Positions 3-18,800 of a stretch of 64,000 bases of DNA are shown here, one piece after another. Where the stretch lies: assembly GCA_964450385.1 (NCBI GenBank), contig CAYVEC010000004.1, positions 22,148 through 86,147 of the forward strand, written 5' to 3'. This stretch comes from an uncultured Planctomycetales bacterium. GTDB taxonomy: Bacteria > Omnitrophota > Gorgyraeia > Zapsychrales > JANLHA01. Under the pieces are notes generated by a model. It saw only the letters and a program-made list of their open reading frames with translations, ran no database searches and had not been told where the DNA came from. Within the stretch, counting starts at the first letter, position 1, and each line of letters starts with the position of its first letter. Position numbers and translations under genes: made by a program.

Positions 3-1232
3 GACATTGCCAACGCGATGTTGGGCTCCTGCGCCTGGACAGAGGGCGGAGACTACTGGATTTATGATGATGAAGGAAATATTGTTCGACTCGAGAGCGA
101 AGACAATGAAGAGTATCAGGCATGGCTCAAGGCCAATATCGCGGCCTTTGAGGTCTTCAGCGCAAAGCTGCAGGCTCGGAGGTCTTTTCTTGAAGAGTTT
201 GTCAATAAGGCGGAAACGGTCCGGCGCCAGCTTGCCGAGGCCGTGGACCGGATCTCGGAGTTTTTGGATAATGGAACGCCGATCGGTACCGCTGTTCGGG
301 ATGACGACCACAATACTGTCGCGGACGGCCCGGTGGTGCGAGGGTCGATCGACCACGACGGGTTTTTGACCGAGTCGCTCGGTCTTCCGTATAACCGCTT
401 TGTTCCCTTGTATGATGAGGACGGGCATGTCGCGGGGCCCTATGACACCACAGGGACAGATTCGCCGGCTGAGATGATCATCCGCACACGCCAGGGGCTG
501 AGAGGCGGGGCGACGTCGAATTTTGCGATCTATGTCTGGCGCGGAGAATCGAGCGATCCCGACTGGTCTGACGGAAAGGTGACTCAGACGTCAGGGCTGC
601 TGCACGCGGTGAAGGTCGAGTCTCAGGTCCCGATGCGCTGCGCGAATTGCACCCTTAATGGTATGGGCGGCAAAAAATGGCCGTCGGTCGAGACATCATC
701 ATCGGGCTTTATGGACAGCGAGACCTGTTACTATCTGGTGAATCATTTTGGGATGACCAAGGCCCGGGTGATCCGGTTCGACCAGCGGCCGAACCTGCCG
801 AGCGCGGGGTCGCTGTTTAGCCGCATTCCTTTTTTCCGACCCACAGGCGCGCATCCCGACTTTAGCAGCCGCAACGTCACGGGCGGAGGCCTTTTTAATA
901 CTGTTAATAATCGATGCCTCGTTCACATTGATCCGATCTTGATAGACATGTCAGCAGCATTACCGGAGCAGAGTCCTCAGCTCCTTGAGGCCTTTATGAT
1001 CAATGAACCGCCTCGGCTGGATGATGGAACATTTGATAGAGATTTCACGACGGATGCGGGGCAGTGCTGGAACGATGTTCATGACTATATTTTGCGTTAC
1101 GGCATCCATTCCGAGAGTTGTGTTGGGTATTATTGGGGGAAGAAGAAGGGGGGCGCCTCCGCCGCCGGGGACGAGAGGGGCATGAGGATGCGGTTTACGA
1201 AGTGTGACCAAGCGTTTGCCGAGGGATGGTAG
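3..1232 (+). CDS. hypothetical protein, 5'-truncated at the window edge (open from position 3 in frame 3; first ATG at 18; stop TAG at 1230-1232)
   Basis: Continuous GC3-rich coding-like codon usage in + frame 3 from the window start; the ORF track gives 404 aa from the first ATG. No recognisable catalytic motifs; its position upstream of flp/tadBC suggests a pilus-locus accessory protein. It is not a CpaF/TadA ATPase because no Walker A motif is present. Confidence 0.5.
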   Translation, partial: DIANAMLGSCAWTEGGDYWIYDDEGNIVRLESEDNEEYQAWLKANIAAFEVFSAKLQARRSFLEEFVNKAETVRRQLAEAVDRISEFLDNGTPIGTAVRDDDHNTVADGPVVRGSIDHDGFLTESLGLPYNRFVPLYDEDGHVAGPYDTTGTDSPAEMIIRTRQGLRGGATSNFAIYVWRGESSDPDWSDGKVTQTSGLLHAVKVESQVPMRCANCTLNGMGGKKWPSVETSSSGFMDSETCYYLVNHFGMTKARVIRFDQRPNLPSAGSLFSRIPFFRPTGAHPDFSSRNVTGGGLFNTVNNRCLVHIDPILIDMSAALPEQSPQLLEAFMINEPPRLDDGTFDRDFTTDAGQCWNDVHDYILRYGIHSESCVGYYWGKKKGGASAAGDERGMRMRFTKCDQAFAEGW

Positions 1233-1243
1233 GAGCCGGAGAG

Positions 1244-1588
1244 ATGGATCAAAAAAGACAGAAAAACGGTTGCGGCGTGTCCACGGTTGAGTATATGATT
1301 CTTTTGGTCTTCTGTTTGGCGGCGCTCGTGCTCATGTCCGGGCCGGTCCAGCGGGCGATCCAGGGGCGCTGGAAGGCGACGGCCGACACCTTCGGCCAGG
1401 GCCGGCAATTCGAGCCGTCGAGCGGCGGGGCAGCGAAAAGGACGCGAGACTATTTTTTTGATGCCGATACACAGGACTGGATCAGCCAATATTGTTTTGA
1501 TCAGCGGTGTGATTGCAGTTTTGAAGAGATCGATCCTGCCTATGACGCACAGTGTGTTCGCTGCAAGGCTGGTTGTCGGGTCCCCTAG
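1244..1588 (+). CDS. flp: Flp/Fap-family (type IVb, Tad) prepilin-like protein with an unusual Cys-rich C-terminal extension
   Basis: N-terminus MDQKRQKNGCGVSTVEYMILLVFCLAALVLMSG fits the class-III prepilin motif G/xxxxEY followed by a hydrophobic helix, typical of Flp pilins. GGAGAG lies just upstream of ATG 1244 (the track's ATG 1226 overlaps the upstream stop). The roughly 60-aa C-terminal tail contains 6 Cys (CFDQRCDCSF...CVRCKAGC), unusual for Flp pilins. Confidence 0.55.
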   Translation: MDQKRQKNGCGVSTVEYMILLVFCLAALVLMSGPVQRAIQGRWKATADTFGQGRQFEPSSGGAAKRTRDYFFDADTQDWISQYCFDQRCDCSFEEIDPAYDAQCVRCKAGCRVP

Positions 1589-1624
1589 GTAGGGCGTAAC
1601 GGGGAAGCGGTCAACGGGGGGAGA

Positions 1625-2482
1625 ATGTTTCCATTGGCTTTATTCTTGGCGTTTCTGACGGCCGTGATCACGGGCTACTGGGTCCTCCCGGCGGTCTACG
1701 GTCAGGGCGTCGGGTTCCAGCAGCGGCGGGCGCAGCAGTTCACCTCGCGGCTTGAGCGCGTCGTCTCACGCCCGCAGGCCCAGCGGATCATCCAGCTCTA
1801 TCTTCTCGCTCCGTTGTTCCTCGCCGGCGTCATGTATTTCACGGCCCCGGCTCGGCTGCAGATCCTGGCCGGCGCGGCCGGACTCGCCCTGGGCCTTGTC
1901 GTCCCTACGTTCTACACACGGATCCTTGTCGCGGGCAATAAAAAGAAATTTGATGAACAGCTCATCGACACGCTCATGATCATGTCGAGCTCCTTCCGCG
2001 GGGGGCTGAGTCTCATGCAGTCGATCGAGGCGGTTGTTGAAGAGATGTCCGACCCGGCGGCCCAGGAGTTCGGGACCGTGCTCGGCGAGAACAAGATGGG
2101 CGTCTCGCTCGAGGAGTCGATGGAACACCTGTATAATCGTCAGCCGAGTCCGTCGCTGCAGCAGATGATCACCGCGATCCTCCTCGCGCGCGAGACCGGG
2201 GGGAACCTGCCGGCCATCTTTCAGCGGATCGTCGACGTGATCCGCCAGCGGCGCCGGATCCAGGGGCAGATTGACACCCTCACTCTTCAGGGGAAGATCC
2301 AGGGCGTCGTGATGTCGATCCTGCCGGTGGCCTTCTTTATGATCATCAGCTCGACGAACCCGGACCATTTTAAGGTGATGTTTGATACCGAGATCGGCCG
2401 CATTCTGCTTCTTGGTGCCCTGGTCGCGGAGATTATCGGCGCGTACATGATCTGGCAGATCAGCTCGTTGAAGGATTTTTGA
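1625..2482 (+). CDS. tadB: Tad pilus assembly inner-membrane protein TadB (type II secretion system F domain)
   Basis: 285 aa with an N-terminal TM helix and T2SS-F domain motifs (..LIDTLMIMSSSFRGGLSL.QSIE..; ARETGGNLPAIFQRIVDVIRQRRR; C-terminal TM helices), matching the TadB/GspF-like family pattern. Confidence 0.8.
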   Translation: MFPLALFLAFLTAVITGYWVLPAVYGQGVGFQQRRAQQFTSRLERVVSRPQAQRIIQLYLLAPLFLAGVMYFTAPARLQILAGAAGLALGLVVPTFYTRILVAGNKKKFDEQLIDTLMIMSSSFRGGLSLMQSIEAVVEEMSDPAAQEFGTVLGENKMGVSLEESMEHLYNRQPSPSLQQMITAILLARETGGNLPAIFQRIVDVIRQRRRIQGQIDTLTLQGKIQGVVMSILPVAFFMIISSTNPDHFKVMFDTEIGRILLLGALVAEIIGAYMIWQISSLKDF

Positions 2483-2503
2483 TATGAGACGGAGGCGTTA
2501 GAT

Positions 2504-3388
2504 ATGTTCCTCTTCTGTTTATTCCTGGCCTTTCTGTCGGCCTTCAGTTTTATCATGGGGATGTTCCCCGTCGATTGGGAATCCCGGCCGACGCTTGAGA
2601 CCTTCGGGTATGATGTGCGGATCAAAAAGCGGGGGGGCCGGCGGTTCTCGCTCCTCAGGATCGTTTCGCTTATCAACAAACCCCTCTGTGTGGGGGTCAT
2701 GGGTGCCCGTATCCGGAAAGACCTCGTCAAGGGGCGCGTGGCGATATCGCCTGAGGAATTTTTTCTGCTCAAAGAGATCAGCGTGATCCTCATCTCGATC
2801 GCGGCGGTGATGCTTATTCCCAAAGACATGCTCTCCCTCGGCCTCCTCATCGGCGTCATGGTGGGGTATCTCCTGCCCGAGTATTGGTTAAAGGGCAAGA
2901 TCAAACAGGTCCGCCAGACGATCCTGAAGGAACTCCCCGACGCGGTTGACCTCCTCGGGCTCTGCGTTAATGCCGGGCTGGATTTCATGCTTGCCCTCAA
3001 ATGGGTCGTCGAGAAATCCCCGCCGTCGGTGATGATCAATGAGCTCAACATCCTGCTTCAGGAGATCAACGTCGGGAAAACCCGCCGGGACGCGCTCAAA
3101 TCTCTCGCGCAGAAATATGATCTCCCCGATCTCTCGACGTTCACTCGGACGCTCATCCAGGCCGACAAGATGGGGACCTCGGTCGCCGAGGCCCTTAATA
3201 TTCTTTCGGAAGACATGCGGCTCGCCCGCTTCCGGCGCGGTGAGCAGCTCGCCATGAAGGCGCCGATCAAGCTCCTGGTCCCGCTCATGTGTTTTATCTT
3301 TCCGGTCGTGGGTATATTGGTCGCAGGCCCAATCTTTATTCAATTTATGACCGATAATCCGCTGAGCAAGATCGGCGGCAAGAAGTAA
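2504..3388 (+). CDS. tadC: Tad pilus assembly inner-membrane protein TadC (type II secretion system F domain)
   Basis: 294 aa with an N-terminal TM segment and T2SS-F domain (LPDAVDLLGLCVNAGLDFMLALKWVVEKSP...; LIQADKMGTSVAEALNILSEDMRLARFRRGEQLAMKAPIKLLVPLMCFIFPVV), classic TadC features. It sits 21 nt after the tadB stop. Confidence 0.8.
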   Translation: MFLFCLFLAFLSAFSFIMGMFPVDWESRPTLETFGYDVRIKKRGGRRFSLLRIVSLINKPLCVGVMGARIRKDLVKGRVAISPEEFFLLKEISVILISIAAVMLIPKDMLSLGLLIGVMVGYLLPEYWLKGKIKQVRQTILKELPDAVDLLGLCVNAGLDFMLALKWVVEKSPPSVMINELNILLQEINVGKTRRDALKSLAQKYDLPDLSTFTRTLIQADKMGTSVAEALNILSEDMRLARFRRGEQLAMKAPIKLLVPLMCFIFPVVGILVAGPIFIQFMTDNPLSKIGGKK

Positions 3389-3412
3389 CATAGAGTGACG
3401 CGTTGTGTGACA

Positions 3413-3442
3413 AGGGGACGATTATCGTCCCCTTTTGTATTT
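3413..3442 (+). terminator. Rho-independent terminator after tadC
   Basis: GGGGACGA-ttat-TCGTCCCC perfect 8-bp stem followed by TTTTGTATTT, 25 nt after the tadC stop codon. Confidence 0.6.
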
Positions 3443-3456
3443 AAAAAGGGAAAAAT

Positions 3457-3511
3457 AAATGTCCAATTTTAATGTCCAAAATGTGTCAAGAGGGGTTTTA
3501 ATGTCCAAAAC
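3457..3511 (+). promoter_or_regulatory. Cluster of direct repeats TTAATGTCCAAAA (operator-like); a fourth copy lies at 3955-3968 inside the start of the giant ORF
   Basis: Exact 13-mer TTAATGTCCAAAA at 3469-3481 and 3498-3510 with a near copy AAATGTCCAATTTT at 3457-3470; an identical TTAATGTCCAAAAT recurs at 3955-3968. Three exact copies of an AT-rich 13-mer within 500 bp of a GC-rich genome is non-random. Confidence 0.4.
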
Positions 3512-3674
3512 AGCGACGGATGCGGAAGAAAGCCCTTTCATTTTTTTGGGCGAAAAGGGTCATCCTGTCGGCTGCAAAGACCGAAAAAAATTTTTTATTT
3601 TTTTCTCGACAAAAATTTTTTTCCAATCACCAAAAGACGTTTGATTTTAAACGAGTTAAAGCATAAAAATTTTT

Positions 3675-3702: not shown

Positions 3703-3870
3703 ATGATATACTCTTAGCGCACTAGCCCGGAGGAAAAAAGAACAGCCGTATCGCAGTTGTCAAGAACATAATTGTCCAATCACAAAAGTCGCCTGAACCG
3801 GCGACTTTCTTGTTTTATAAAAACCCCGGGCGTTTTCATAATGTACAGTCTGTAAATATAGGATTCTTTT

Positions 3871-6800
3871 ATGGACGACAGAATGGACATAAAAACGAGC
3901 GCCGAAACTGTATCCGCGTGCCATGAGCAGGCGGGTGAGGGAACGGTGCGTCTTAATGTCCAAAATACCGGGATCCTCCATGCCCCGGAAGCCGGGCATG
4001 GGTTCCAGAGCCGTTTTAAGGCCTGGATCCGGGTTGTCGCGGCCCTGATCGTCTTTGTCTTTGTGCCGGAACAGGTGAGCTGGGCCATGAGCTATAATCC
4101 GGCCGTGCTCTGGAGCCCCCAGCCGATCCCGCTCGCGGTCGGGGCCCCGGTTTCTGGACCGGACCTTGTCCCAGCTGCGCCTGAGCTTGAATTGCCCCAG
4201 GCCGAGGCTGCGGCCATGCTCGCCTCGAATATCGAGTCCCTCATGGGCCGGATCGCGCAGATGAATGCCCGGCAGATTGATCTTGAGATCGCGTCCGCTG
4301 ATCAAAAACGGTTCGCGGATATCAAGAACCTCCGTCTTTCGACCCGTAAAAGGATCGCGGCCGCGGATATCCAGGCGGCCGTGTCGTGGCTGAAACAGCC
4401 CGAGATCCATCCGCTCAACTGCGGTGTTTTTGCCGCCTATGACTTTTTAAAGCACTACAATCAGCCGGTCTCGATCGAGCAGGTCTCGCTCGCGACGCTC
4501 TCGGTGGACCTGCTGTCTGACATTATTAGGCCCGGCGACCCGACGCTGAAGACGTCACTGTTCGCGATCAACCGGGTGCTCTCCCTGTATCCCGTTAAGC
4601 ACGCGGTGATTAAGATGCATCCTGAGGCGATGCTGCGCCTCGCCCCGCCGTTTATCGCGAATTTCCAGAGCGAACACTTTGTCCTCGTGACCGGCGTCTC
4701 CGGTGAGACGCTGACGGTCCAGGATACGGGCCGCGTGCGCGAGGTCCCGATCCCAGACTTTTTGGCCCAGGCCTCGCCGTTCGTCGTGATCGCCGAGAGC
4801 GGGATCCCGGAGGGTGTTGAATATACTGAGGCTGGCGCGGCCGAGCAGGCTTATATCTGGGGTGACAAGTGGGTGGACCGGTCGGATGAACTGCCGGGTC
4901 TCATGGGCGATGTCAGCGATGTGATCCAGGACGTCTTGGTCGAAGTCGCGATCATTGTTGTATTGGCAATCATTCAGGTCCAGATGGCGCAGTGGATCCA
5001 GCGGGCGGCGGAGGGGGCCCAGCAAGCTGGCGAGGCCGCCTCGATGCTCCAAAAGCTTGCCGCCCAGATGAATAAATTAGATTATGTGAAAAATTCTGCC
5101 GACTTGGGCAAGGCGCTCGGGACGGCGATGGCAATGGTCGGGGTCAGTGATTTTGCGAATACGCTCAATCAGGTTGCAGTCCTTCAAGGCTGGTGGGATG
5201 AGGATCTGGGTTTTGTGATGAGTACGGCGATGTCCACGGTCTTGGCCGGGGCCGTCGTGGGGCCTGGAATCGATGGCGTAGTCACAGCGGCGGAGGGCCT
5301 CCCACAGAATGCTACGGGGTCTGTCATCTTGAGCGAGACAGCCAGGGGTTTTGCGAGCGGGGTCAGGTCTTCCTTCACGGCCTCTCGGATGGCCACGATC
5401 TTAGGCACGGCCGTGGTGTCGACGTCATCCAAGGTCGCCCTTCACAAGGCCCTTCCGGAGGGCATGAATCCGATCATGCGGAATTTTTTGATGGGCCTCG
5501 GCTCGAGCCTGATGACCCAGGCGGTCCTCGCGGCTGGAACCATGGCTTTTTCATCCATGAAGCAGGAGATCGGCGCCGGTAATACGGTTAAGGATCAGCT
5601 TGATCAAAAGTTGGCGGAGTGGCAAAAAAATAATCCCGGGAAGATCATGACCCCGGCCGAGAGGGAGGTCTTGGTCAACGAAGTACGCGCGGGCTTGATC
5701 GCTGGTATTAATAATGGTTCGATCGATCCAGAGTCGGCGCGAGAGGCCTTTGCCAGGGCCGAGGAGCGGGGCTACCTTGAAGAGAACGTCCCGCAGGAGG
5801 TGCGTGCTCAAATCGAGGCGGATTTTAAAGCATACGCGGCAACCCCTGCTTTTAATGAAGCGATGAATGCGTATGTTGCGAAAGCGCAAGCAAATGCTTC
5901 TTCTGGTTCGACAAACGACTTAAAAAACCTATATATTGAACAGCAACGGGGCGTCTTTACTTCTAATAAGATAGATGGGTACATCGCGTCACAGCTTGCC
6001 CTGAGCGACCGTTTTGTGAGTAAGGCGATGCAGGACAAGCGCGCGGGATGGCGGAATGAATTTGATGACAAGATAAAAGACATCGGCGTGTTGAAGGAGA
6101 TGGTCAGCCGCGGCTATTTTGATCGAACCTTTGTTCCCTTTAATACTCAAGAGACCTGGTCGTGGCTGGGGCGCAGCATGCTTTCGCAGACGATCGGGAT
6201 GAGCTTTGCCGCCGGGATCAAACTCCTCCTCGAAAAAGTTGATGAGGACACCTTCGGCCCTGAGACGGCCGTGGCCCAGGCCCTGGCCGGATTCGGGCAG
6301 ATGATGGGCGAGGTGGTGGCCCAGGGCTTTTTAACAGGCTGGAAGGCGCCGGGCGAGATCGCATCGGGCGGTGTCGAGTTTGAGCATGTGACCCAGGTCG
6401 ACGGGAAGGACATGGCGGTTGAATTGAGGGACAATGGCCAGTGGTATCGTGTGGCCGATGCGGGGAAACCTGTCGAGACGTTAACGCCGGTCGCGGTCGA
6501 ACAGATCGTCTCGCGTCCTATCGTGTATACACAATCAGGCGAAAAGGTCTATTTGACGTTTAATCCGGCAGGCGCTGTTGTTGCCCATCGTGGGTCTTCC
6601 GACGGAGAAGAGGTTGCGCTTTCCTGGAATGATCAGGGTGAGATCCTCGCAGGCCCTATAAATGGAAATGATGACGGATGGCAGAGGATGCAGGCAAAGC
6701 TGCGCCTTGCGCCATCAGTCGGCATGAACGGCCAGATCTCAGGGACGCTCGTTCAGGATCGCACCTGGGGGAAATTCCTTACGGCGAATCTTGTGCAGGC

Positions 6801-9800
6801 CGCGGTCGGTGGGGCGATCGGGTTCGGGATCGATCAATTGGAAGGGCTGTGGATTGATAAGGAAGACACAAGTTTGGACAATAAACGCAAGACCCTGCTC
6901 GTGAGGTCGCTCGTATTTACCGGGATGCTCGGCCTTGTCGAGGCCACGGGTGCCATGAAACGCTCGAAGCTCGCGGGGACGGCCGAGCCGTCGCCTGAGA
7001 GCGCCTTTGGGTATCTGTTCCTGAAGGGCGGGACCACCTTCCTTATGAATACGGCCATGGCCTTGGGGACGTTTAACGGCACGATGCCGGGTTCGGATGG
7101 GTTCAGGTCGCCGCAGCAGGCGGTCCAGTTCGCTGAGGCGGTCTCGGATCGTGTCGGGTTCGGCACGAGCACGTATCTCGCGATGTCGGGCATGCGTGAG
7201 GATATCGATAAGAGCGAGATGTCCGCTGCCCAGAAAGAGTATCAATTGAAGACCGGGATGATGACGGTTCTCGACGACGCGCACCGGGGCTGGATCTATG
7301 ACCAGCTTAACACCCAGCTCTCGGGCGGGTTCATGGGGTCGGATATCTTTGTCGAGGGAGGGATCGTCACCGCTGGCAAGACGGCCCTATCCATGCTTTT
7401 GTCCGGAGAGAACAATGCCTCGCGCGTCCGCGACCTCCTCGGGTTCACGTATTATCGGTGGGTCGTTCAGCCCGTGATCACTGCTGAGGCCCGCACATCT
7501 GAGCCGGCGGCTCTGACTGCCGCGCCGGGCACGACGCCCGCTACGCCGGCCGAGAGGCCTGAGGGCGACGCTGATCGCGCGGAGGAGCCCCCGGCCGAAA
7601 ACATTAAGAGAACGAATCTTTACGCCCTCGGCGCGTCATCCGCGGCTGATCCCTATCGGGAGACCTTTGACCTGCCGTCGCTCGGGGTGGCGCTTGGCCG
7701 CGGGGCCATTGTTAAGGATTGGGGCCGCGGATATCAGGAGATCACCCTTGCGCTGGGCAAGGACCTTCAGGAACGCTGGGGGATCAGCGCCGAGGATCTC
7801 CGACTCGGTCCGGTCGGCGGGGATTCGCTCCTTGGGGAAACGCCTGAAGAGATCGCCGAAAAGCAGAATCCGGCGCGGAGGGAGTTTATCCGGACGGCCG
7901 CCGGTAACAGCGCGGTCGGGCTGCGGGGCTTTATGTCGGATTTTCTCACCGAGCCGGGGCTGCGGACAGAGGGATTTGTCATCCTTGAGGACGATCTCGG
8001 CAAGGATCGTCAGGGCGTCTCTGCGCTCGTCTATCGGATCGATCCGGGCGCGCGCACGGCCACGAACGGCAGATGGGAAGGCGACCTGATCCGCGTTTTA
8101 GGCGACAACATGGAGCTGTTCGATGGGCATGTCATGAGCCATGTCGGACTTTCCGGAGAGGTTGCGCCAATCCATCCCGACGTGCTCCTGGCTCAAAAGG
8201 CTGAACGGATCGCAGATCTAACAGCGAGGATGGAACAACTTGAAGACGAGATGGTGGATTTAGAAATTCAGAAATTTTTTAATCCTGGATATGATGCGGA
8301 GTATTTATATCATCTGGTCAAGAATGAAGAGCATCAGGAAAGGCTTCAAGTTGAAATAGCAGCTTTAGCAAAGGAGATAAGTCAGAGTTCAGATCCCGGT
8401 CAGGTGGCGGATTTGGAAGCCCTCATTAGGGAGAAAGAGAATGAATCCACGAGGGTAGCGTTAGATGACCAGTTGTTGTCTAGGTCAGGCTGGAGTGACG
8501 ACACAAATTCAAATATCCTAATTAATAATAAACAGAAAGAGGGACTAGACATTGAGAAGTCTCTTGATAATCTTAAGGCCCTGAATCTCGACGCCGGGCT
8601 AAGCACGCGCGTTGAGACCGTTGCGCTCGGCCTCAAGGGCGAGGAAGGGAGCAAGTATGTGACCCTGAGCCGCAGCTCCCTGGACCGCCGGCAGTATTTT
8701 GAAAAGACAAAGACAGAGGCGTTCGCCCCCGTGGTTTATCGCCCGATCCCGTCGGACAAGAATCCGTTTGATCAGCAGGAGCCGGAGCGGCATGCCCTTT
8801 TCGGGGTGAGCGAGGATGCGCACACCTTGAGGGTTGTGCAGGCCCTGCGGGCTTCTGGATTTAACGATACGTTTATTTCGCGGCTGCAGAACGGCACGTT
8901 GACTGATGCGGAACAGAAAGACGCGATCAGGGTGCTTCAGGAACAGGGCGTGGTCGGTCAGGAGACAACGGGCCGGGCGCTCTTCGACCGCGTCCGCGGG
9001 CTCGCGCAGTCCACGTCGGGTATGAATGAGTTCTTTGACGTGTCGCTCCGGGATTCGTTGGGTAAGGCCGACAGCGTTGAGGCGGGTTTCTTTAGCGGAT
9101 ATCTCGAGGATGCGAACGGACCGAAGGGCCTGATCCGGCTCGCGGCTGCCCGGCTCACGCCCAAGGGGAATGATTGGCGCATGAACATGGCCTATCATGT
9201 CGTTGGCAATCGCTTTGTGGGGATGGATCCCCAGAATCTTTCGATCGATGAGACGGACCTTAACGGCCTTGCCCTTGTTGACGTGCGGACGAAAGGGATC
9301 TCGGCCCTGGATGTCTTTGACGGAAAGACGCGGCTTGATGACGGGATTCTCGGCGGGGTCGCGGGGCAGAGCGGTGTCGCGATGCGCCAGCGCGAGGCGG
9401 CGTTGAGGAGATCAACGGCCTCGACGGATCTTATCACGTTAGTGCAGGCCATTAACGTGGTGTCGTATGCGGAGGCTCAGACCAGGCTTTTTAAAGAGGC
9501 CACAGAAACGATAAACAAATTTTTTGCGAAAGAATTCCCTGCTGAGACGGTGCCGGAGGATATTGCTGGCAAGATCGGTCTTTTGAAGGCAAAAGTCGAT
9601 GAGAAGAAAGAGGACCTTAGAGCAGGGACACTCACTGTTGTGGGAGAGGGATTGTCTGCTCAGCCCAAGGAAGAGGCGATTGCCGCTTTGACGAAAAAAG
9701 TCAAAGACCTTGAACAAGTCGCTAAGTTTATTGAATCTCGGGAGCTCGGTGAGATGAACGTTGCGCAGACTCGGGCTGCCCTTCAAGAACAGATTGGTCG

Positions 9801-12800
9801 TCTTAATGAAGAGATTGAAGGTGTTTATTTTTCATCGGAAGACAGTGGTCCCGATGCTGTTGTAGAAGACTCTGTCGCCTGGGATAGGATTGAAAACCTT
9901 TCGAAAAATAGGGATGCCCTCCAGGGGCTGTTAAGCTTTTTCCCAGAAGGAGATGGTGATTTAATAAGCTTGAGTCAAAAAGGAGAGAGTGTTGAACAAA
10001 AGATTAATAAGTCAAAAGACGAAAGGGATAAGTTACAAGAAGCCTATGCCGCTTTCCGCTCAGGGATCGACACTCTTTTAACAGCAAACGCCCACACCCT
10101 GATCGCGATCGGAAGATATGAGCATCTGATCGGCGAGCTCGAGAAGGTCCAAAAGGGCCCGGTCAAGGTCCCCGAGGTCGAGGTGGCCGTCAGCAGCGAC
10201 GGGTCCAACCAGCTTTTTACTGCTGTAGGCACGATGAATGACGCGCTCGGCCTTGCCCCGGGCGAGACGCGGTTCTTGATCGTCCGTGAATTTTTGCCGG
10301 GCGAGGGCGGAAAACATCCTTTTGCCATGACGGCCTCGGCCTTTGCCCAGGGCGGTGTCACGTCGATCGGCGGGGCGTTCGACGCGCTCGCCGGCCGCGA
10401 CGCCTCGAAGGCCCGCGCCTTTATCGAACTGGTGCGTTTTCAGCAGAGCGGATATACGAATTTTTCTGGCCTCTGGAGACATACATTAAGCAAGGATGAC
10501 TTAGAGAAAATCAAAGCACAGCTTATCGCCTCAAACGGGAATATCAGCGCGGCGATGGCTGCGTTATTCGAAGGGAGCCCGGAGGTGATGGCCCGGCTTT
10601 CCGGCGGGGCCGCGAGGGAGAGTCCGGCTCAGGCCGTGCGCGCGGATGCTCTGTTAACATGGGCGCGTCCCGGCAGTTCAACGGTCGCGGATATTGAGGG
10701 GCTGAGCCAGCCGTTTGGCCGCCGGCCTTCGATGTATCTGGCCCGCGAGACAGTTGATGGGGGCGACGTTTCCTTAAATAATGGGTGGCTTGGATACCGG
10801 ACGCGCGGGATCGGCTCGATCGTTGATGTCCAGGGCGACCAGGCGGCTCTCTATACAGCGAAGAAGGATGATGTCATTAACGGCCACCAGGCGACCATCG
10901 TCTCGACGGAAAAAGGTGTCGAGGCGGGAGCCGGCACGATCCTACGTTTTGGGGAGGCCGGCGGCTGGGCCCCAGGCATGGCCGACACCTGGCTTCAACA
11001 TGCGGTCGTGGCGCAGGACGGGCTGACGACGGTATTTAGTCCGCTCATGGGTCAGAAGATCAGCCTTCTCCATGCCGGGATCTTTGACTGGGAGTATACG
11101 AGGACGGGGAAGGATGCGAATGGTAAGCAGCTCGCTCATAGGGCCACGGGCAAGGTCTTTGAGATCGCGGAGCGTGAGGCCTCAGGGCCGTTCGCTTTTT
11201 CGACCGAGATTTATACAGATAAAGAAGGGAATATCCGCACTCGCTCGACGTCGGATTTTGATCAGGCAGGGATCTCCCTTGTTCCAGGCCGGCAGGCCGC
11301 CTTCGGCTTTGATGGAGAGATCGTCTCCACATTTACGGGCGAGGACGCATTGCCTAAGGAACAAACGTATCGCCTGGAATCATTTGTTGGGTATGATCCG
11401 AAGGGGGCGCTGCGGGCGGGGCTGTTTAATGCTCAAGGCGAGTTTTTGCGCCATAGTGAGAAGGCAGATTCTCCGAAAGCGGCGAAGGAACAGGCCTCGC
11501 GTGAGTTTCTGGTTCCGGTCGAGACCACGTTCGGGCGGCCAACCGGGGTCTCTCAAGAGACAGCGAGTTTGATCTTTAACGCGTTACCGACCGGGATCAC
11601 GGGGGCACGCACGGTTGTTGTTCGCGCGGCAGGCAAGGATCGTCTGCTCGGCCAGGACGTTCTGCTCGTTGACGAGGGGTCTGGTCAGGTAGCGATGCTT
11701 GTCGATCAGGAGAAGCTCGGCCAGCCGGATCTTTTGGTAGCGGCTGCCCGCAGTAATACAAGGATTTTATCCGTTGCGGAGTATGAACAATCCGTCCCGC
11801 GTCAATCGCCCGGAGCTGCGGCTGAGGCGGCAGGGCCGGATCCGAGCGCGCCTACTCCACAGCAGGTTGTGGTTGTGACCGGTCCCGCGGCCGGGACCGC
11901 AACGATCGAGACGCCCGACGGGACCGTCACGCGCGATCTGGCGATGGTGGATCTCGCCCGAGGAGGGGCGACGTATGAGTTAATCGTGTCTGGAAAAAAT
12001 CAAGAAGATTCAAGCAGCTATCTCACGACAAATCTCACGCCCACCATGCTCGTGTATGCTATGAGCCCCGTTGAAGCAGGGTTCCATTCCGTGCAGGCCC
12101 AGTTCGAGATGAATAATAGCCGATATATTTATCTTCCAGAGGCGGTGGATCGGTTGACGGCGTCTGGGTGGCGTTTGTCGAACAACATCGAGCCGGTCCG
12201 TTCGCCGCTCGATCCTTTGAACGAGTCCCTTGCAAATTCCCAGAGCCAATCTCTCCTGAGCGGGATCATCGATCTGCGCGACGGTCAAACGCGGCTGGCC
12301 CCAGGGTCGCTCGTCCTTAATGAGAACGTCACGGTGAAGATGAACCAACGAGAGGGTTGGCCTTTAGGGAATTGGTTGACATTTGCGGAGCAACAAGGGC
12401 AGACGATTACGACGCGTGAGTATATCGGTCCGAGCGGCAGGCCGGAATTTATTCTTTCCCTTGACGCAAAGACAACGAGTGTTGAAAAGAGTATCTCTGA
12501 TTGGTGGACGGGTCCGACGGAGCCGATGATCGACAAACATGTTTCGCTCGTTTCAGAGAGGGACGTGATGCTGCGTGACGGCGATGGTGACATCGCGATT
12601 AACGGCGCGATTGTTAGCGGCACGGTCCATCGTTTTATCCATCCGGATCAGGCCCTTGCTGATGGCGCGAGCCGAGATTTTGTTTTCATCAGCGGGGGGC
12701 CGGGGTATCGCCACCGCCTGGCCGAGGCAACCGTGCCGTTAGACTGGGCGTATATTCGTAACGTGGCGAATCCCGGGGAAGGTTCGGACGCGCCGGAGGC

Positions 12801-15800
12801 CAAGAAGCTGGCCGAGAAGCCGTGGTCGTTGCGTCCCTTGTTCGGCGGCGCTCCGGATGTGGCGGATATCACCCGCTACGATGAGACGGCAAAGACCGTT
12901 GACCTCACGGGTCAGGTCGGTTTCGGGTTTGGTCAGCGCGTGGAAGGCGACCAGATCGCCCTCACCTTTGATCCCGGGCCTCGGCCGTTTGAGGTGCCGG
13001 GGTCAGCCTACACCGTGAAGGTCGGCGAGGCGGCCTTTATCAAAAACGAAGTAAAGATTATTCGAAATCCGAATGGGACCGAGGATTATGTCAATCAGTT
13101 AAGGGAGGCAGGAGATCAGGATCCGACGCGAATGGTTCGCGATGTCACCGGCGGGGTTCCGATTGCCGGGATGAGGGTTGTTGACGCGAGTAAGGTCCTT
13201 GGTCAGGGCGCGAGCGTGATCGACGTGAATCACCTCGGCCGGGTCGAGGTCCGTGACGGGAGTGTCGGGTATTTTCTGCCGCTCGGCGTTGATCAGGTGA
13301 AGATCGCGGGGACCATCGAGAATCAGCGGATCGATCGGGCGTTCTTGCTGACTCGTCCATTAAATATTGAAGCGATGCCGGTCACGAATAGTTTCTTGGT
13401 GCCGGTTCATGAATTTTTAAACGATGACACGATGGCGATGCGGGTTCGGGATCTTGCCGGCCGGATTGATCCATATCGTATTCGACATGACGATAAGGGA
13501 CTTGTCGCGCTGGTATATTCAGACCCGGAGATCACGAATAGCGATGAGCGCGTGGTTCGGAACCGCTTGTCCGCTGGTTGGGCGGGAGAGCCCGGCGACT
13601 GGATCGGCGGCGGCGTGTATGAGGCCCTGATCGACATTGAGCCGAGCGCCTCGCTCGGCGGCGGCCGTGTTGACCGCATCGCGGATATGCCGCTTAAGGT
13701 TCAGGCGATTGATGCAGCTAAGGTCACAGCGTATCAGCAGAAACCCGCGGGCGATGGCCCTGCGCCGCAATCAACAGATCTTGAGACCCTGGCCGTGATC
13801 GGCACTCTGACCGACGAGCAGAAGGCCCAGGTCGAGGACCAGCTTTATAAGAACTTGCGGGCTGCTGCTATCGCGAAGCGGGTGGATGCGGCACTAGCAA
13901 CAATCAAGGATCCCACGGACGCCGAGAAGAAAAGTATTCTTGAAAAAGAGACGGCCAACGTTCAGAACGATTCGACATTGATCGCTGAGTTAAAGAGCCA
14001 GGCTGACGCCGAGGCCGCACGATATAGCGCGATCCGGGCAACGCCGGGGAGCGCGGTCACGCTCCAGACGGCTTATGGTACAGGCAGTATCCTAGAGGGC
14101 GCGATGATCAATCTGTTCGCCCGGTATAGTGTGCCAGAGCTTGTTGAAAAAACAGGCATGTCAGCTAATGTGGCTGCGCAGCTCAAGGCGCATCTCAATG
14201 AGGTTGTCAAGAAGAACGGACAGATCAGTCAGTATGCGACATTTAAAGATTTTGCTGATGAGGTGCTTGGTCGAGGCCGGGATGCCGGGCTGGGCGAGAG
14301 CCGCTTGCTGGACGATCAGGTCGCGCGAATCCAGGCAGCGACGCGCGAGCTTATTCCGTCAGAGGCCGGGGTGGTTCTCCTGCCGGCGGCGGACACCCAG
14401 GAGGGATCGGCGTTTGAGGGCCGCACGAATCCGTTTGGCCCGATGGTCATGTCCGAGCCGGAGGGAAGCCTTCTTTTGTTGGGCAGGGACGTTGCCGGCG
14501 TTGATAGCGGGGTCCAGTCGGCATGGACACACGGCACAGGGGACACAAAATTTGAGATCGCGTCGAGCACCTTCCGCGGCTCCGACGGCGCGGCAACGGG
14601 TCTGTATTACTATACAGAGGAAGGCCAGAAGGCGCCGAGCGCGCATATTTTTAATAACACGAATCAATTTGTCTGGTTTTATAACGCGAAGGGCGAGGGG
14701 ATTCCGGCCCGGGTCAAGGCCATGGACCGGCCGGATATGAAGATGACGGTGCAGGATGCGGTGCTCACGATCTTGGCCGGGCAGGACAGCGGTTATGATG
14801 ATCCTTCGAAGGGCATGAGGCTCGGCGATGAGCGGCAGCGCGGATGGCTCATCCAACTCCTTCCGGAAATTTTCGCTCGGTATTCAAGCGACAATGAATT
14901 TATAACGGCGATGAAAAAACTGGGGATCGCTCAGGATGCCGCCGGAGATTTGTGGAAGGTCCGTTCTGCTGTTTCAGCCGCAACCAGCGGACCAGATGAC
15001 GCCGGGACATTTGTGTGGATATCCGACACTCAAGCGCCAATTATAGCGACCACCCATGTGGATCGGACCATTGAGGCCCGGAAGATCTTTGACGGATTGG
15101 ATCCGAATCAGCAGAGGGCCCTTGTTGATGCCCTTATTCCTGTTTATGCCCGTTATCTGGCACCCGGGAAAGGGCTTGATGAGACGTTCGATCCGGTCGC
15201 GGTTCTGTCAGGGGAGAATCCGGATGAGATCGGGAGCCTGGGGCTTGCGCAGTTCACAGGATTAGGCCGCGCCCGGCCGAACGCCATGATCACCGACGGC
15301 ATCAGCCATGTCATGCCGATCGTCGAGGGCGGGACGCTCTCGGGCATTCAGACACCGTTTGATCGTTTTGCCGTTGATGCCACGATCCGAACTGGGGACG
15401 GTTCGTTGGCGGCCCGCGCAAGGGAGATTAAGGTTTTTGAGGATGGCAGATGGGGGCTGACCTTCCGCGCAGGGGTCGATGGGAAGCCTGCCCAGATCCA
15501 GGTCCCGGTGAATAACGCGATACGAGCCGCGATGCTTGATCCTTTGATGCTGGTTGCCGATAGTTCAGATTATTTTACCGAAGACGGCCCCGGCGGTGCT
15601 TCGAGGAGTGGGTTTGTTGAATCAACGGCCAGACCGTATGAAATTTTAAATAATGGTCAGGGTCCGTGGCGTCTTGAGCTGGGCAGGGCCCATGGTGTGG
15701 TTTCGGAACTGACGCTGTTGTTCGGCGGGATCGGCGCGAATGGCGAGGTGACGTTGTCCTCAACGCTCGGCATGGTCGGCCGGCATTGGGTTCATGTGGA

Positions 15801-18800
15801 GGGTCAAAAAACGGCCCAGGCCCGAGCCGCAGAGACATTGCTCAATTATATGCAAGCGGTTGGCGCCTTTGGAAAGTATCGCGAAAACGGTCAGACGGCG
15901 TGGTTTGTCGGCAACCTTCCGGATACAGCGCGCATGGTTGAGCAGCTGCGCGGGGGGGAGAGCGTCAGAGGCAGTGACGGCAGATCGATCGATCCGTCTA
16001 AAAATGAGACGTTTGTCGCCGGGCCAGGGGGCGTTTTTTATCTCATGGATCCGCGCTCCGCTGAAAAGGGCGCGAAGGGATATGATCCTAAAAAGCATCT
16101 TGTCTTTGGCGACCGGTATGTGGATTTCAATGTTGACGGGAAACCCGGCCGGATCCTTTTGTCAGATCTTGGCCGCGGAGAGACAGACAAGGCCGAGGTG
16201 AAGGTCGTCCTCCGCTCGGGCCAGGGAGAGGCGGTCGGTTTTGTGCCGTTAAAGCGCTTTAATTTGATGAGCCGGTCGTTGGATGATTTTTTTAGTTTCA
16301 GCATGTTTTTTACTCCGGCCTTAGTATGGAGGTCCACCAAATCCGCCCTTCGTTCGTTTAGTCGGATTTCGTCGACAGCAGTGAACGAACATGGGGTTCC
16401 GGTCTTTGAGGCAAAAAGCGTTCTGGGGCATGAATTTTTTGTGGGCGGGAAGAAAGAATTGCTCCGCGGGGATTTTAAGGAAACGGCCTTAACCACAGGG
16501 GCTTCGTTTGCTCAGACATCCGCGGGCAAGGTGGTTGGGCTTGACGCGATTGATGTCTTGTTCGCCGAACCGATTTCGGCAAGGGATTTTGCGAATGCTT
16601 CTGACAAGCTGGGATTTTTTAGCAAGATCGGGCGCTTTGTCACCGGTCGTCAGGAGTCATCGGTCATGATGCAGAATTCTGACGGATCGGTATCATTCTA
16701 TAGGGCGGGGCATCAGACGAGCCGGATCGGAAGGGAACCCGAGGCGGGAGAATTTTTTAGCGATGCGGGTTTGTATCACGGCGACATTAAGAGACGGACG
16801 AATTATAATTTGGGTCTGTTAACCGGGATCGTTGACGGATTTGACGGGAACCAACGGACCGATGACGTCATTGTGGCAAGTGGTGGGTGGATCCGTCAGA
16901 TCGATTTTGATCCGGATCAGATGGGCGCCCTGTTTACGCGCGGGAAGACCGATGCGGAGGGCCGCGTTGTTGTGCCGCGCGGGCTGTGGGCCTCGGCCAA
17001 TTCGTGGGCGGCGACTGGCCGGACCCTGAATACCTTTAGCTATGTTCAGGGGGCAGGCGATGCGGTTAGTTGGGCGCTGATTGTTACGGGAATCGGCGCG
17101 GCCGTTGTTAAAGGGGTGGTCAAGGCAGGGGCGCATGCGGGTTCCAAAGTGATCATTAAAGAGATTACCAAGCAGTGGGTCTCGTATTATGGCCGGGAGA
17201 CCTTGCGGCAGCGTGCGGTTTTGACCGGGATCAATGTTGCCTTGACTGGATTTATGTCAGGCGGACAAGCTGATCTTTCAGATTATGCCGAGGCGGCATT
17301 TTTTACCGCCGCGGTGCCGTATAATTTTGTGCGGTCGGATAGTATTTCAGCGTTGATGTCCAGGGCGAAGTCTGCGCTGCGGTCGGTTCCTCTTCGGGTT
17401 GGCCCGACCACGGCAAAAGTGATTGGCGGCGTCGGAGCGGCTGCGGGCCTCGGTGTCGGCGCGTATATGTTGAAGGACGGGGTTCAGGGATGGGCTTGGC
17501 AGAGGGAAGGGGATGGTTCGGCGGGTCGTGGCTTATTGGGCTGGTATGACGGGAATAAGAAATGGATTGTTCCGGTCGCCTTTGGGCTGACCGCCTTCGT
17601 CGGCGTTAAAGGCGTTCAGTCGGCGATAGCGTCTGGGGCCTCTGGTCGTCAGACGGCTCTTCTTCTTTTGGGGTCGGCGGCTGCGGCAGGGATCGCCCTT
17701 CACCAGATGCGTAACGATTCCATGATCCAGATGTCCTCTTCGGGGGCCATGGTGGCTGCCCTTGTGATGGCAGCAGGGGGTCCCTTGTGGAAGGGTGTTG
17801 CGGGTTTTGCGGGCAGAGCGGCTCAAGCGGCGACAACAACGGCGGGCAGGAGAGCTGCGGTGGGGATCGGTGTTGGTCTTGCGGGGACTGGGGCTGCTGG
17901 TGTTTTGATTAATAGATACAATGATCGGCCCTGGTATGACGGTGATGGATTGGCCTGGGGGGTTGTCGGAACGGTCGGAGCCGCGTCGCTGATCGGGTTG
18001 TCCGTTCTTGCGGGCGCGGGGGGCCGGACAGCTCCGCGGTCGTTGCTGGCCATGGCCCGCCGGACAACGACGCTGGGGCGTGTCTTGGCGGTGGGCGGCG
18101 GAGTGGGCGGCACAGCGGTTCTCGTGAATAAACTTCAAGGCCGTTCAGCCTTTGATGTTGCCGGACTTAAGATGGCGGGCGGCGCTGCCATCGCTGGGAT
18201 CATGATTGGGGCGACGCATCGTTTCGCCCCGATGGCCTATCGCCAGTTAACGAGGCCGGGGATTCTGCTTCCCCTGACTCAGATGTCGGTCTTCCAAAAT
18301 ACAATTGATGCCCATTATGGCCTGGATCCCGAGAGCGCCTCATGGACGAGGAACGTGTTCCGGACGATTTTTTTGGCCCCTGGCCGCGGGTACATCAATG
18401 CGGTATCGTTCCATCATTATAAAGACGATGTTCGAAACTTTTTCGCCGGCCGCACCGCGGGTGAGCAGCGGATGATTATCTCGCAGGCTGAAGATCGTTT
18501 TGGCCGGTTATTAGCTAGCGGCGTTGTGTATCCGATCGCTTATGGGCGCGCGATGGTGAGCGCCCTCACAGGTTCATGGCAGGCGGACACGATCCTTTCT
18601 CCGTGGAACACAGTGAAGGCGGTGCTCGATCCGTTGCGTATCCCTGAAAAGGGGGCCAAGGCGCAGATGGATCAGGACGAATCGTTCACCTTGGCGCATG
18701 GCACATGGCTGATCGCGAGTCTGCTCGGGGCCAGGGCTGGTTTTCGAGGATTTAAATCGGGGTCAGGCGCCACGGCTGATCCAGGGTTTTGGGCAAGGAC

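What the first reader, a model, noticed from the sequence alone, without database searches (positions are those of the whole stretch)
4380..4780. C39-like cysteine peptidase domain immediately after the N-terminal membrane anchor
Q..x..CG and HFVLV..(16 aa)..D geometry matches the C39 catalytic triad. C39 domains normally cleave double-glycine leaders on ABC exporters. At the N-terminus of a giant anchored protein it may instead autoprocess the mega-protein or act on a target. Several Gly-Gly pairs occur further along the protein (for example ...AAEGAQQAGEAAS...).
Basis: partly seen in the sequence, partly recalled or inferred. Interest (0 to 1): 0.6.

Follow-up and report, generated by a model that had tools for sequence, protein, structure and literature searches.

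The report
C39 protease head of Omnitrophota giant protein
The flagged stretch is a real C39-type cysteine protease domain near the start of a giant (more than 20,000 amino acid) protein of an Omnitrophota bacterium, a feature of these giants that two preprints have already described, so it is a correct but not a new finding.

Summary
Confirmed. Window nt 4357-4836 (+) encode a papain-fold C39-family domain (giant-protein aa 163-322). It sits in an ORF that starts at nt 3871 and runs off the window end (>20,043 aa).

- **Catalytic residues.** Cys184, His269 and Asp285 are at the stated codons. Across about 160 domains from cluster representatives they are Cys 157/161, His 154/156 and Asp/Glu 133/153.
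The Gln is not at the canonical position (Cys-6 is Glu178) and is not conserved. The "Gly-Gly" example contains no Gly-Gly.
- **Context.** All 18 related genomic loci are MAGs, 16 labelled Omnitrophota. In each the domain heads a very long ORF, and 15 have the same Tad/T2SS-like genes upstream.
- **Topology.** Charge bias and an (A/S)-x-A motif predict the domain is exported, unlike the cytoplasmic C39 of ABC exporters.
- **Substrate.** Unknown. No double-glycine leader-like sites are enriched.

N-terminal C39 domains on Omnitrophota giants, with the same autoprocessing-or-target speculation, were published by West-Roberts et al. (2023). Low-to-moderate interest.

The parts
3871..64000 (+). 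Giant ORF, truncated by the window end: 20,043 aa within the window.
   Evidence: No stop codon from nt 3862 to the window end. The start at M3871 matches the ortholog N-termini, MDxRxD.... Pfam hits are sparse: C39, M23, HEAT, NUDIX, guanylate kinase, DUF218. There are 24 hydrophobic segments.
3871..4017 (+). Variable N-terminal extension (aa 1-49) ahead of the hydrophobic segment.
   Evidence: Length varies among orthologs; only the MDxRxDN start is conserved.
4018..4101 (+). Basic n-region, hydrophobic core (TM1 or signal-peptide h-region, aa 50-68) and the conserved motif FVPEQ-x-[AS]-[WQ]-A-x-x-Y-[ND]-P (aa 64-77).
   Evidence: KD hydrophobic peak at aa 49-67. K/R counts are 55 on the N-side against 2 on the C-side over 20 sequences. 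Many positions are more than 90% conserved in about 146 family representatives, with small residues at -3 and -1 of A72.
4198..4356 (+). Family-specific N-terminal extension of the domain: a helix plus a beta hairpin (aa 110-162).
   Evidence: AF2 model elements H68-89, E93-98 and E112-115; pLDDT block means are 81-84 over the helix and about 49-66 over the hairpin.
4357..4836 (+). C39-family papain-fold peptidase core (aa 163-322).
4420..4422 (+). Predicted catalytic Cys184, in the motif PLNCG.
   Evidence: Aligned to the Cys of the ECG motif in the LahT150 chain 6mpz. Invariant in 20 orthologs. Cys in 157/161 family domains, Ser in 4. One of only 2 Cys in the first 8,496 aa.
4507..4563 (+). 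Family-specific loop between helix 2 and helix 3, with invariant Asp213 and the K-T-S-L-F motif (aa 227-231).
   Evidence: Asp213 is present in 160/160 domains; Ser229 in 148/158. The segment is longer than in canonical C39 domains, judged from alignment to the 6mpz and PCAT1 sequences.
4675..4677 (+). Predicted catalytic His269, in the motif EHFV.
   Evidence: Aligned with the His of LahT150 and PCAT1. His in 154/156 family domains.
4723..4725 (+). Predicted third triad residue Asp285, 16 residues after the His.
   Evidence: Aligned with the Asp of LahT150. Asp in 113 and Glu in 20 of 153 family domains.
4858..4902 (+). Conserved post-domain motif WG(D/S/N)KW-D-S-D-LPGL (aa 330-344).
   Evidence: Conserved in the close orthologs. 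Gly331 is present in 92/94 domains.
4933..5001 (+). TM2 (aa 355-377), the strongest hydrophobic segment of the N-terminal region.
   Evidence: KD 2.51 over 19 residues. A hydrophobic segment lies at the same place in the orthologs.
1226..3388 (+). Upstream Tad/T2SS-like genes: a pilin-like protein with a class III signal (1226-1588) and two T2SS-F (TadB/TadC-like) proteins (1625-2482 and 2504-3388).
   Evidence: Pfam T2SSF at E 1e-18 and 1e-13. The same gene order precedes the giant ORF in 15 of 18 related loci. The pilin-like N-termini have G or A at -1 and E at +5.

Best explanation
Window nt 4357-4836 encode a C39-family (clan CA, papain-fold) cysteine peptidase domain with an intact Cys184-His269-Asp285 triad. 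It belongs to a conserved N-terminal 'head' of an Omnitrophota giant protein. The head consists of a variable extension, a basic and hydrophobic signal or anchor segment, a linker, the C39 domain, and TM2. The giant gene lies directly downstream of a Tad/T2SS-like gene cluster.

**Shown**
- The fold and the family.
- Conservation of the triad.
- The N-terminal position and the conserved gene neighbourhood.
- Absence of the canonical oxyanion Gln.
- Absence of any ABC-transporter part in the 20,043 aa available.

**Inferred**
1. The domain is catalytically active (about 0.7).
2. It is exported to the outer face of the cytoplasmic membrane and held there by TM2, the opposite side from the C39 domain of ABC exporters (about 0.7).
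3. It performs limited proteolysis that matures the giant polypeptide itself, in cis or between neighbouring copies, rather than removing a classical double-glycine leader (about 0.4).
4. If not that, the other option is cleavage of a partner or prey protein.
For: **Family and fold**
- PF03412 passes its cut-off in the window protein (26.6 bits), in the nearest homolog P0001 (42.4 bits), and in the precomputed domains of 8 of 9 further homologs.
- The profile hits LahT150 at E 1.3e-5, with the Cys and the His/Asp segments both in register.
- The AF2 core has pLDDT 85-95.

**Likely activity**
- Cys, His and Asp are invariant in 19-20 orthologs down to 26% identity.
- Across about 160 family domains they are Cys 157/161, His 154/156 and Asp/Glu 133/153.
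- Cys184 is a lone cysteine in a protein almost free of Cys.

**Export**
- K/R counts are 55 on the N-side against 2 on the C-side of the hydrophobic segment.
- (A/S)-x-A is conserved at -3/-1, with Pro at -7.
- Ortholog cysteines come mostly in close pairs, as in exported proteins.

**A functional unit**
- The head is the only part of the first ~2,300 aa that is alignable between orthologs.
- 142 of 176 family hits include the signal segment, at a median start of residue 28.

**Precedent for self-processing**
- The same proposal has been published for this protein class.
Against: - No activity, topology or cleavage data exist for any member.
- The canonical oxyanion Gln is missing: Glu178 here, and E/D/S/G/N/K or a gap across the family.
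- No Gly-Gly occurs in the first 832 aa.
- There is no StbD-like GG in the linker upstream of the Cys.
- Double-glycine-leader-like patterns are not enriched in the giant protein, at 1 observed against 2.6 expected. GG is depleted.
- The Pfam model aligns only profile positions 44-106 of 133.
- The topology rests on charge bias and motif reading. No dedicated predictor was run.
Confidence: 0.55

Rival explanations
1. The domain is an active C39 peptidase whose substrates are other proteins, not the giant protein itself. Candidates are proteins handled by the adjacent Tad/T2SS-like machinery, or surface or cytosolic proteins of prey cells.
For: - The catalytic-residue conservation is the same as for the best explanation.
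- No plausible self-cleavage motif was found in the head.
- The StbD-CT C39 domain cleaves GyrB and ParE of target cells at Gly-Gly.
- Linkage to a secretion-system locus is conserved.
- The published discussion allows this reading.
Against: - The domain sits between two hydrophobic segments at the membrane-proximal end of the protein. It is therefore poorly placed to reach prey.
- The neighbouring pilin-like proteins carry class III signals with G or A at -1 and a variable -2 residue. They have no GG, and their cleavage site would be on the cytoplasmic face.
- No small double-glycine-leader genes were seen in the 3.8 kb upstream.
Confidence: 0.3
2. The domain is a non-catalytic C39-like module, as in the haemolysin exporter HlyB. 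It would bind or chaperone an unfolded polypeptide, possibly the nascent giant chain, during export.
For: - The canonical oxyanion Gln is absent.
- West-Roberts et al. mention the chaperone precedent.
Against: - HlyB-type C39-like domains are known for loss of the catalytic Cys (established knowledge, not tested here). Here Cys is kept in 157/161 domains and His in 154/156, even though the proteins otherwise almost exclude Cys.
Confidence: 0.1
3. The motif match is a chance resemblance, or the fold belongs to another papain-like family such as NlpC/P60, CHAP or a pseudomurein endoisopeptidase that acts on cell walls.
For: - The Pfam alignment is only partial.
Against: - Only PF03412 is hit in Pfam.
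- The sequence profile reaches solved C39 domains directly.
Confidence: 0.03

Closest known systems
N-terminal C39 peptidase domains of Omnitrophota giant proteins ('Archaeovorin'-type), described by West-Roberts et al. 2023 (bioRxiv 10.1101/2023.11.21.568195). A 24-protein PF03412 architecture cluster is reported in bioRxiv 10.64898/2026.06.07.730766.
   Same: - The nearest relatives are Omnitrophota MAGs.
- The ORF is giant, with many TM segments.
- The C39 domain lies near the N-terminus, next to a predicted signal peptide.
- A T2SS/Tad-like locus with class III signal-peptide genes lies upstream.
- NUDIX and peptidase domains occur further along the protein.

   Different: Nothing essential differs.
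- This copy is only 26-46% identical to the relatives found, and its TadC gene product is not in the public gene index.
- No SecA_DEAD domain lies in the 20,043 aa available, but the ORF continues beyond the window.
Peptidase domains of peptidase-containing ABC transporters (PCATs): LahT150 (6mpz), PCAT1 (4ry2, 7n87), ComA (3k8u, 5xe8). MEROPS C39, Pfam PF03412.
   Same: - Cys in a CG motif at the start of helix 1.
- His and Asp 16 residues apart.
- Pfam score above the cut-off.

   Different: - There are no ABC transporter membrane or ATPase domains.
- A signal or anchor segment precedes the domain, so it is predicted to lie outside the cytoplasm.
- The oxyanion Gln is absent.
- There is an extra N-terminal helix-hairpin and a longer loop carrying an invariant Asp213 and the KTSLF motif.
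- No double-glycine-leader substrate is evident.
C39 toxin domain of the CdiA-like protein StbD from Citrobacter rodentium (8ssm, 8ssk; bioRxiv 10.64898/2026.05.07.723447).
   Same: - A C39 domain carried on a very large surface protein rather than on an ABC exporter.
- It shows that such a domain can both self-process and cleave targets.
   Different: - In StbD the domain is C-terminal, is delivered into target cells and is neutralised by an immunity protein.
- StbD self-cleaves after a Gly-Gly 25 residues upstream of the Cys. No such GG exists here.
HlyB-type C39-like domain (3zua).
   Different: By established knowledge, not tested here, the C39-like domain lacks the catalytic Cys and is cytoplasmic. 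Here the Cys is conserved and the domain is predicted to be exported.

Membership tests
Peptidase C39 (Pfam PF03412 / MEROPS C39) | Match to the family profile above the curated cut-off. | tested here: met
   Scores of 26.6 bits (domain alone) and 22.7 bits (first 510 aa) against a cut-off of 22. The nearest homolog P0001 scores 42.4 bits. Only profile positions 44-106 of 133 are aligned, and the score falls to 17.3 bits when a 5,000-aa piece is scanned.
Peptidase C39 (Pfam PF03412 / MEROPS C39) | Papain-like alpha+beta fold closest to solved C39 domains. | tested here: met
   [not shown]
Peptidase C39 (Pfam PF03412 / MEROPS C39) | Catalytic Cys at the start of helix 1, plus His and Asp about 16 residues apart, conserved in relatives. 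| tested here: met
   Cys184, His269 and Asp285 align in register with the CG, HFV and D residues of the LahT150 chain. In family domains they are Cys 157/161, His 154/156 and Asp/Glu 133/153.
Peptidase C39 (Pfam PF03412 / MEROPS C39) | Oxyanion-hole Gln six residues before the Cys. | tested here: not met
The position is Glu178 here and E/D/S/G/N/K/A or a gap across the family.
Peptidase C39 (Pfam PF03412 / MEROPS C39) | Cleaves after Gly-Gly (or Gly-Ala, Gly-Ser) of a leader peptide. | not testable with these tools
   No candidate substrate was found. Neighbouring pilin-like proteins lack GG. Leader-like patterns are not enriched. No GG occurs in the first 832 aa.
Peptidase-containing ABC transporter (PCAT / bacteriocin exporter) | C39 domain fused to ABC transmembrane and ATPase domains, lying in the cytoplasm. 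| tested here: not met
   No ABC_membrane or ABC_tran hit in 20,000 aa. The best NCBIfam hit is 14.6 bits against a cut-off of 853. Export is predicted from charge bias and the A-x-A motif.
Omnitrophota giant protein with N-terminal C39 head (West-Roberts et al. 2023) | Giant ORF with many TM segments and a C39 domain near the N-terminus, next to a signal-peptide-like segment. | tested here: met
   More than 20,043 aa, 24 hydrophobic segments, and the C39 domain at aa 163-322 after the segment at aa 50-68.
Omnitrophota giant protein with N-terminal C39 head (West-Roberts et al. 2023) | Omnitrophota genome, with a conserved T2SS/Tad-like locus upstream. | tested here: met
   All 18 related loci are MAGs, 16 of them labelled Omnitrophota or Omnitrophica. 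TadB and TadC lie upstream in 15 of 18 loci, with the pilin-like gene detected in 11 and the orf404-like gene in 9.
Omnitrophota giant protein with N-terminal C39 head (West-Roberts et al. 2023) | Divergent SecA DEAD helicase domain, present in 'most' such proteins. | tested here: inconclusive
   No SecA_DEAD hit in the 20,000 aa scanned. The ORF is cut by the window end, and the published domains are described as highly divergent.
HlyB-type C39-like domain (non-catalytic) | Catalytic Cys lost. | tested here: not met
   Cys is retained in 157/161 family domains.

The most novel reading that the evidence does not exclude
The signal segment, exported Gln-less C39 domain and TM2 together form a dedicated 'launch and processing' module shared by the Tad-linked Omnitrophota giants. 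This head is the only alignable part of proteins that otherwise diverge rapidly. In this reading the unusually conserved signal segment is recognised by a specific export route. The periplasm-facing C39 domain then cuts the emerging polypeptide at non-double-glycine sites into working pieces. That would answer the open question of whether these giants function as one chain or as many.
Probability: 0.25. Interest if true: 0.6.

Novelty: new member of a known kind. Interest (0 to 1): 0.3.

Why it matters
Whether bacterial proteins of 20,000-150,000 aa act as single chains or are cut into parts is an open question, and a conserved protease at their very start is the obvious candidate for doing the cutting. 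Three details found here sharpen the published idea into testable statements, but none overturns it:
- The triad is nearly invariant although the proteins otherwise almost exclude cysteine.
- The canonical Gln is lost.
- The domain probably sits on the outer side of the membrane.

As a discovery the feature is already in the literature.

Tried and rejected
1. **Single-sequence search against PDB sequences.** It found nothing relevant: one peptide deformylase hit at E 0.17. A 19-sequence profile was needed.
2. **Word-index homolog search.** It gave only 1 and then 9 homologs. The exhaustive representative search gave 480.
3. **Exact look-up of the window's TadC product.** Not on record, so the source contig could not be identified.
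4. **Neighbouring pilin-like proteins as C39 substrates.** Rejected. They carry class III signals with G or A at -1 and a variable -2 residue, and no GG.
5. **Recurring double-glycine-leader-like sites in the giant protein.** Rejected. The strict pattern occurs once against 2.6 expected, and the relaxed pattern 8 times against 9.3.
6. **GG depletion as avoidance of self-cleavage.** GG is depleted in the window protein, at 127 against 162 +/- 10. The effect is weak across orthologs (225 against 250), so I do not rely on it.
7. **Additional C39 copies in the window protein.** None were found with the family HMM, although some relatives carry 2-4 copies.
8. **Minus-strand ORFs 3760-4410 and 4555-5052, and the small ORF 3459-3644.** No Pfam hit. 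I treat them as shadow ORFs.
9. **Weak Rfam 'Termite-leu' match at 3407-3491.** It is below the gathering score and absent from five orthologous loci. I read it as a terminator-like hairpin.
10. **afdb50 fold library.** Unavailable.

Full report
**Observation**

The frame that contains nt 4420 on the + strand is open from nt 3862 to the end of the window. The first Met is at nt 3871, so the window holds 20,043 codons of a truncated ORF.
- Cys184 at nt 4420-4422, in PLNCG.
- His269 at nt 4675-4677, in EHFVLV.
- Asp285 at nt 4723-4725, 16 residues after the His.

**Is it a C39 domain?** Four lines of evidence say yes.
- **Pfam.** Peptidase_C39 (PF03412) is the only hit in the N-terminal 510 aa. 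It passes its cut-off at 22.7 bits, or 26.6 bits for the domain alone, against 22. It aligns only profile positions 44-106 of 133.
- **Profile against solved structures.** The single sequence found no solved relative. A profile of 19 orthologous sequences (A3) hit the LahT150 peptidase domain 6mpz at E 1.3e-5, the PCAT1 peptidase domain at 2.8e-3 and ComA at 0.09. The Cys segment (eihplnCG against QMEALECG) and the His...Asp segment are both in register.
- **Predicted structure.** An AlphaFold2 model of aa 43-345, built on an 11-sequence alignment, has pLDDT block means of 85-95 over the core.

**Conservation**

A scan of one genome per GTDB species found 18 related loci. All are metagenome-assembled genomes, and 16 are labelled Omnitrophota or Omnitrophica. 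In 17 of them the domain heads an ORF that runs off the fetched DNA, up to about 2,380 aa; in L015 the ORF ends at a stop codon after 745 aa. Cys, His and Asp are invariant in this set, down to 26% identity.

The exhaustive search of 1.84 billion cluster representatives found 480 proteins at E <= 1e-3. Of these, 94 reach E <= 1e-30, and many are fragments of proteins up to 7,820 aa. In 180 domain hits taken from the best 150 representatives plus the other homologs:

| Position | Count |
|---|---|
| Cys | 157/161 (4 Ser) |
| His | 154/156 |
| Asp or Glu | 133/153 |
| Asp213 (family-specific) | 160/160 |
| Ser229 | 148/158 |

Q176 lies at Cys-8 and is Gln in only 10 domains. The canonical Cys-6 position is Glu178 here, and E/D/S/G/N/K/A or a gap elsewhere.

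The window protein has only 29 Cys in 20,043 aa, and only two in the first 8,496 aa: C17 and the catalytic C184. Orthologs have 2-7 Cys in about 2,300 aa, mostly close pairs plus the lone catalytic Cys. Keeping this one cysteine argues for catalysis.

**Architecture and topology**

The domain does not immediately follow the hydrophobic segment. The order along the protein is:
- aa 1-49: variable extension.
- aa 50-68: basic and hydrophobic segment.
- aa 64-77: conserved motif FVPEQ-x-[AS]-[WQ]-A-x-x-Y-[ND]-P, overlapping the end of that segment.
- aa ~71-108: low-confidence linker.
- aa 110-162: helix plus hairpin.
- aa 163-322: C39 core.
- aa 330-344: motif WGDKW..LPGL.
- aa 355-377: TM2.

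Over 20 sequences, the 15 residues before the hydrophobic core hold 55 K/R and the 15 after it hold 2. Across about 146 representatives the residues at -3 and -1 of A72 are A/S and A, with Pro at -7. This reads as an extended, possibly cleavable, Sec-type signal. Either way the C39 domain is predicted to be exported and held by TM2. That is the opposite side of the membrane from the C39 domain of ABC exporters. The prediction is an inference, because no dedicated topology predictor was available.

No ABC transporter domain occurs anywhere in the 20,000 aa scanned. The only other Pfam hits are M23 peptidase, HEAT, NUDIX, guanylate kinase and DUF218.

**Neighbourhood**

Four genes lie upstream of the giant gene:
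- A conserved ORF of unknown function (nt 18-1232).
- A pilin-like gene with a class III signal (nt 1226-1588).
- Two T2SS-F (TadB/TadC-like) genes (nt 1625-2482 and 2504-3388).

TadB and TadC homologs lie upstream of the giant ORF in 15 of 18 loci, with the pilin-like gene detected in 11 and the orf404-like gene in 9. By contrast, aa 501-1500 of the window protein have no detectable similarity to the orthologs' first ~2,300 aa. The head is therefore the conserved part of a fast-diverging protein.

**Substrate**

Nothing found here identifies a substrate.
- GG dipeptides number 127 against 162 +/- 10 expected. Double-glycine-leader-like patterns are not enriched.
- The GG depletion is weak across orthologs.
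- The pilin-like neighbours have G or A at -1 and a variable -2 residue, typical of prepilin peptidase sites, and are not C39 substrates.
- The linker upstream of the Cys has no GG, unlike StbD-CT.

**What is known**

West-Roberts et al. [quoted passage not shown] They say these might cleave the giant proteins or other substrates, and that a T2SS-like locus with class III signal-peptide genes lies upstream. A 2026 preprint lists a 24-protein PF03412 architecture cluster among Omnitrophota long proteins.

**Verdict**

The family assignment is supported. The proposed function remains open. My best reading is an active, exported, membrane-tethered C39-family peptidase that most likely matures the giant polypeptide. 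Step confidences are 0.95 for family, about 0.7 for activity, about 0.7 for export and about 0.4 for self-processing. The feature is a new member of a described kind, and interest is low to moderate.

Noticed in passing
window 4009-4101: The signal or anchor segment and the following motif are more than 90% conserved at many positions (S47, F49, W52, R54, A57, F64, P66, Q68, A72, Y75) across about 146 family representatives. That is far more than ordinary signal peptides. Small residues sit at -3 and -1 of A72, and a 45-100 aa extension precedes the segment. This suggests a dedicated recognition signal.
   Followed up: partly
window 3871-64000: The giant protein almost excludes cysteine. It has 29 Cys in 20,043 aa and only C17 and C184 in the first 8,496 aa. 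Orthologs show mostly close Cys pairs (i to i+5..8) plus the lone catalytic Cys.
   Followed up: partly
window 5371-8371 against L001-L018: Beyond about aa 500 the window protein has no detectable similarity (tblastn E <= 1e-3) to the first ~2,300 aa of its orthologs. Only the N-terminal head is conserved.
   Followed up: partly
window 18-3388: A conserved gene order lies upstream of the giant gene: an ORF of unknown function, a pilin-like protein with a class III signal and a Cys-rich C-terminus, TadB-like, then TadC-like. TadB and TadC are found upstream in 15 of 18 Omnitrophota loci.
   Followed up: yes
window 3407-3491: A GC-rich hairpin followed by a U-run lies just after the tadC stop (fold z -4.3). 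It gives a weak Rfam 'Termite-leu' match of 31.7 bits, below the gathering score of 51. It was not found in five orthologous loci and is probably an intrinsic terminator. The intergenic gap to the giant gene is about 480 nt.
   Followed up: partly
window 32788-32982: A Peptidase_M23 domain (31.5 bits, above the cut-off) lies at about aa 9640-9704 of the giant protein. It is a possible peptidoglycan endopeptidase.
   Followed up: no
window 51100-58983: A cluster of enzyme-type domains lies deep in the giant protein: HEAT (51100-51294), NUDIX (56971-57348), guanylate kinase (57517-57975) and DUF218 (58744-58983).
   Followed up: no
P0050, P0069, P0122 (representative-search hits): Some relatives carry two to four internal copies of this C39 subtype in proteins of 2,400-3,200 aa, without the signal segment.
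   Followed up: partly
window 5107-5262 and ortholog loci: Most orthologs have a conserved C-x-M-x-G-x-C-x-E motif just before the third hydrophobic segment. The window protein has lost both cysteines (AVLQGWWDED).
   Followed up: no
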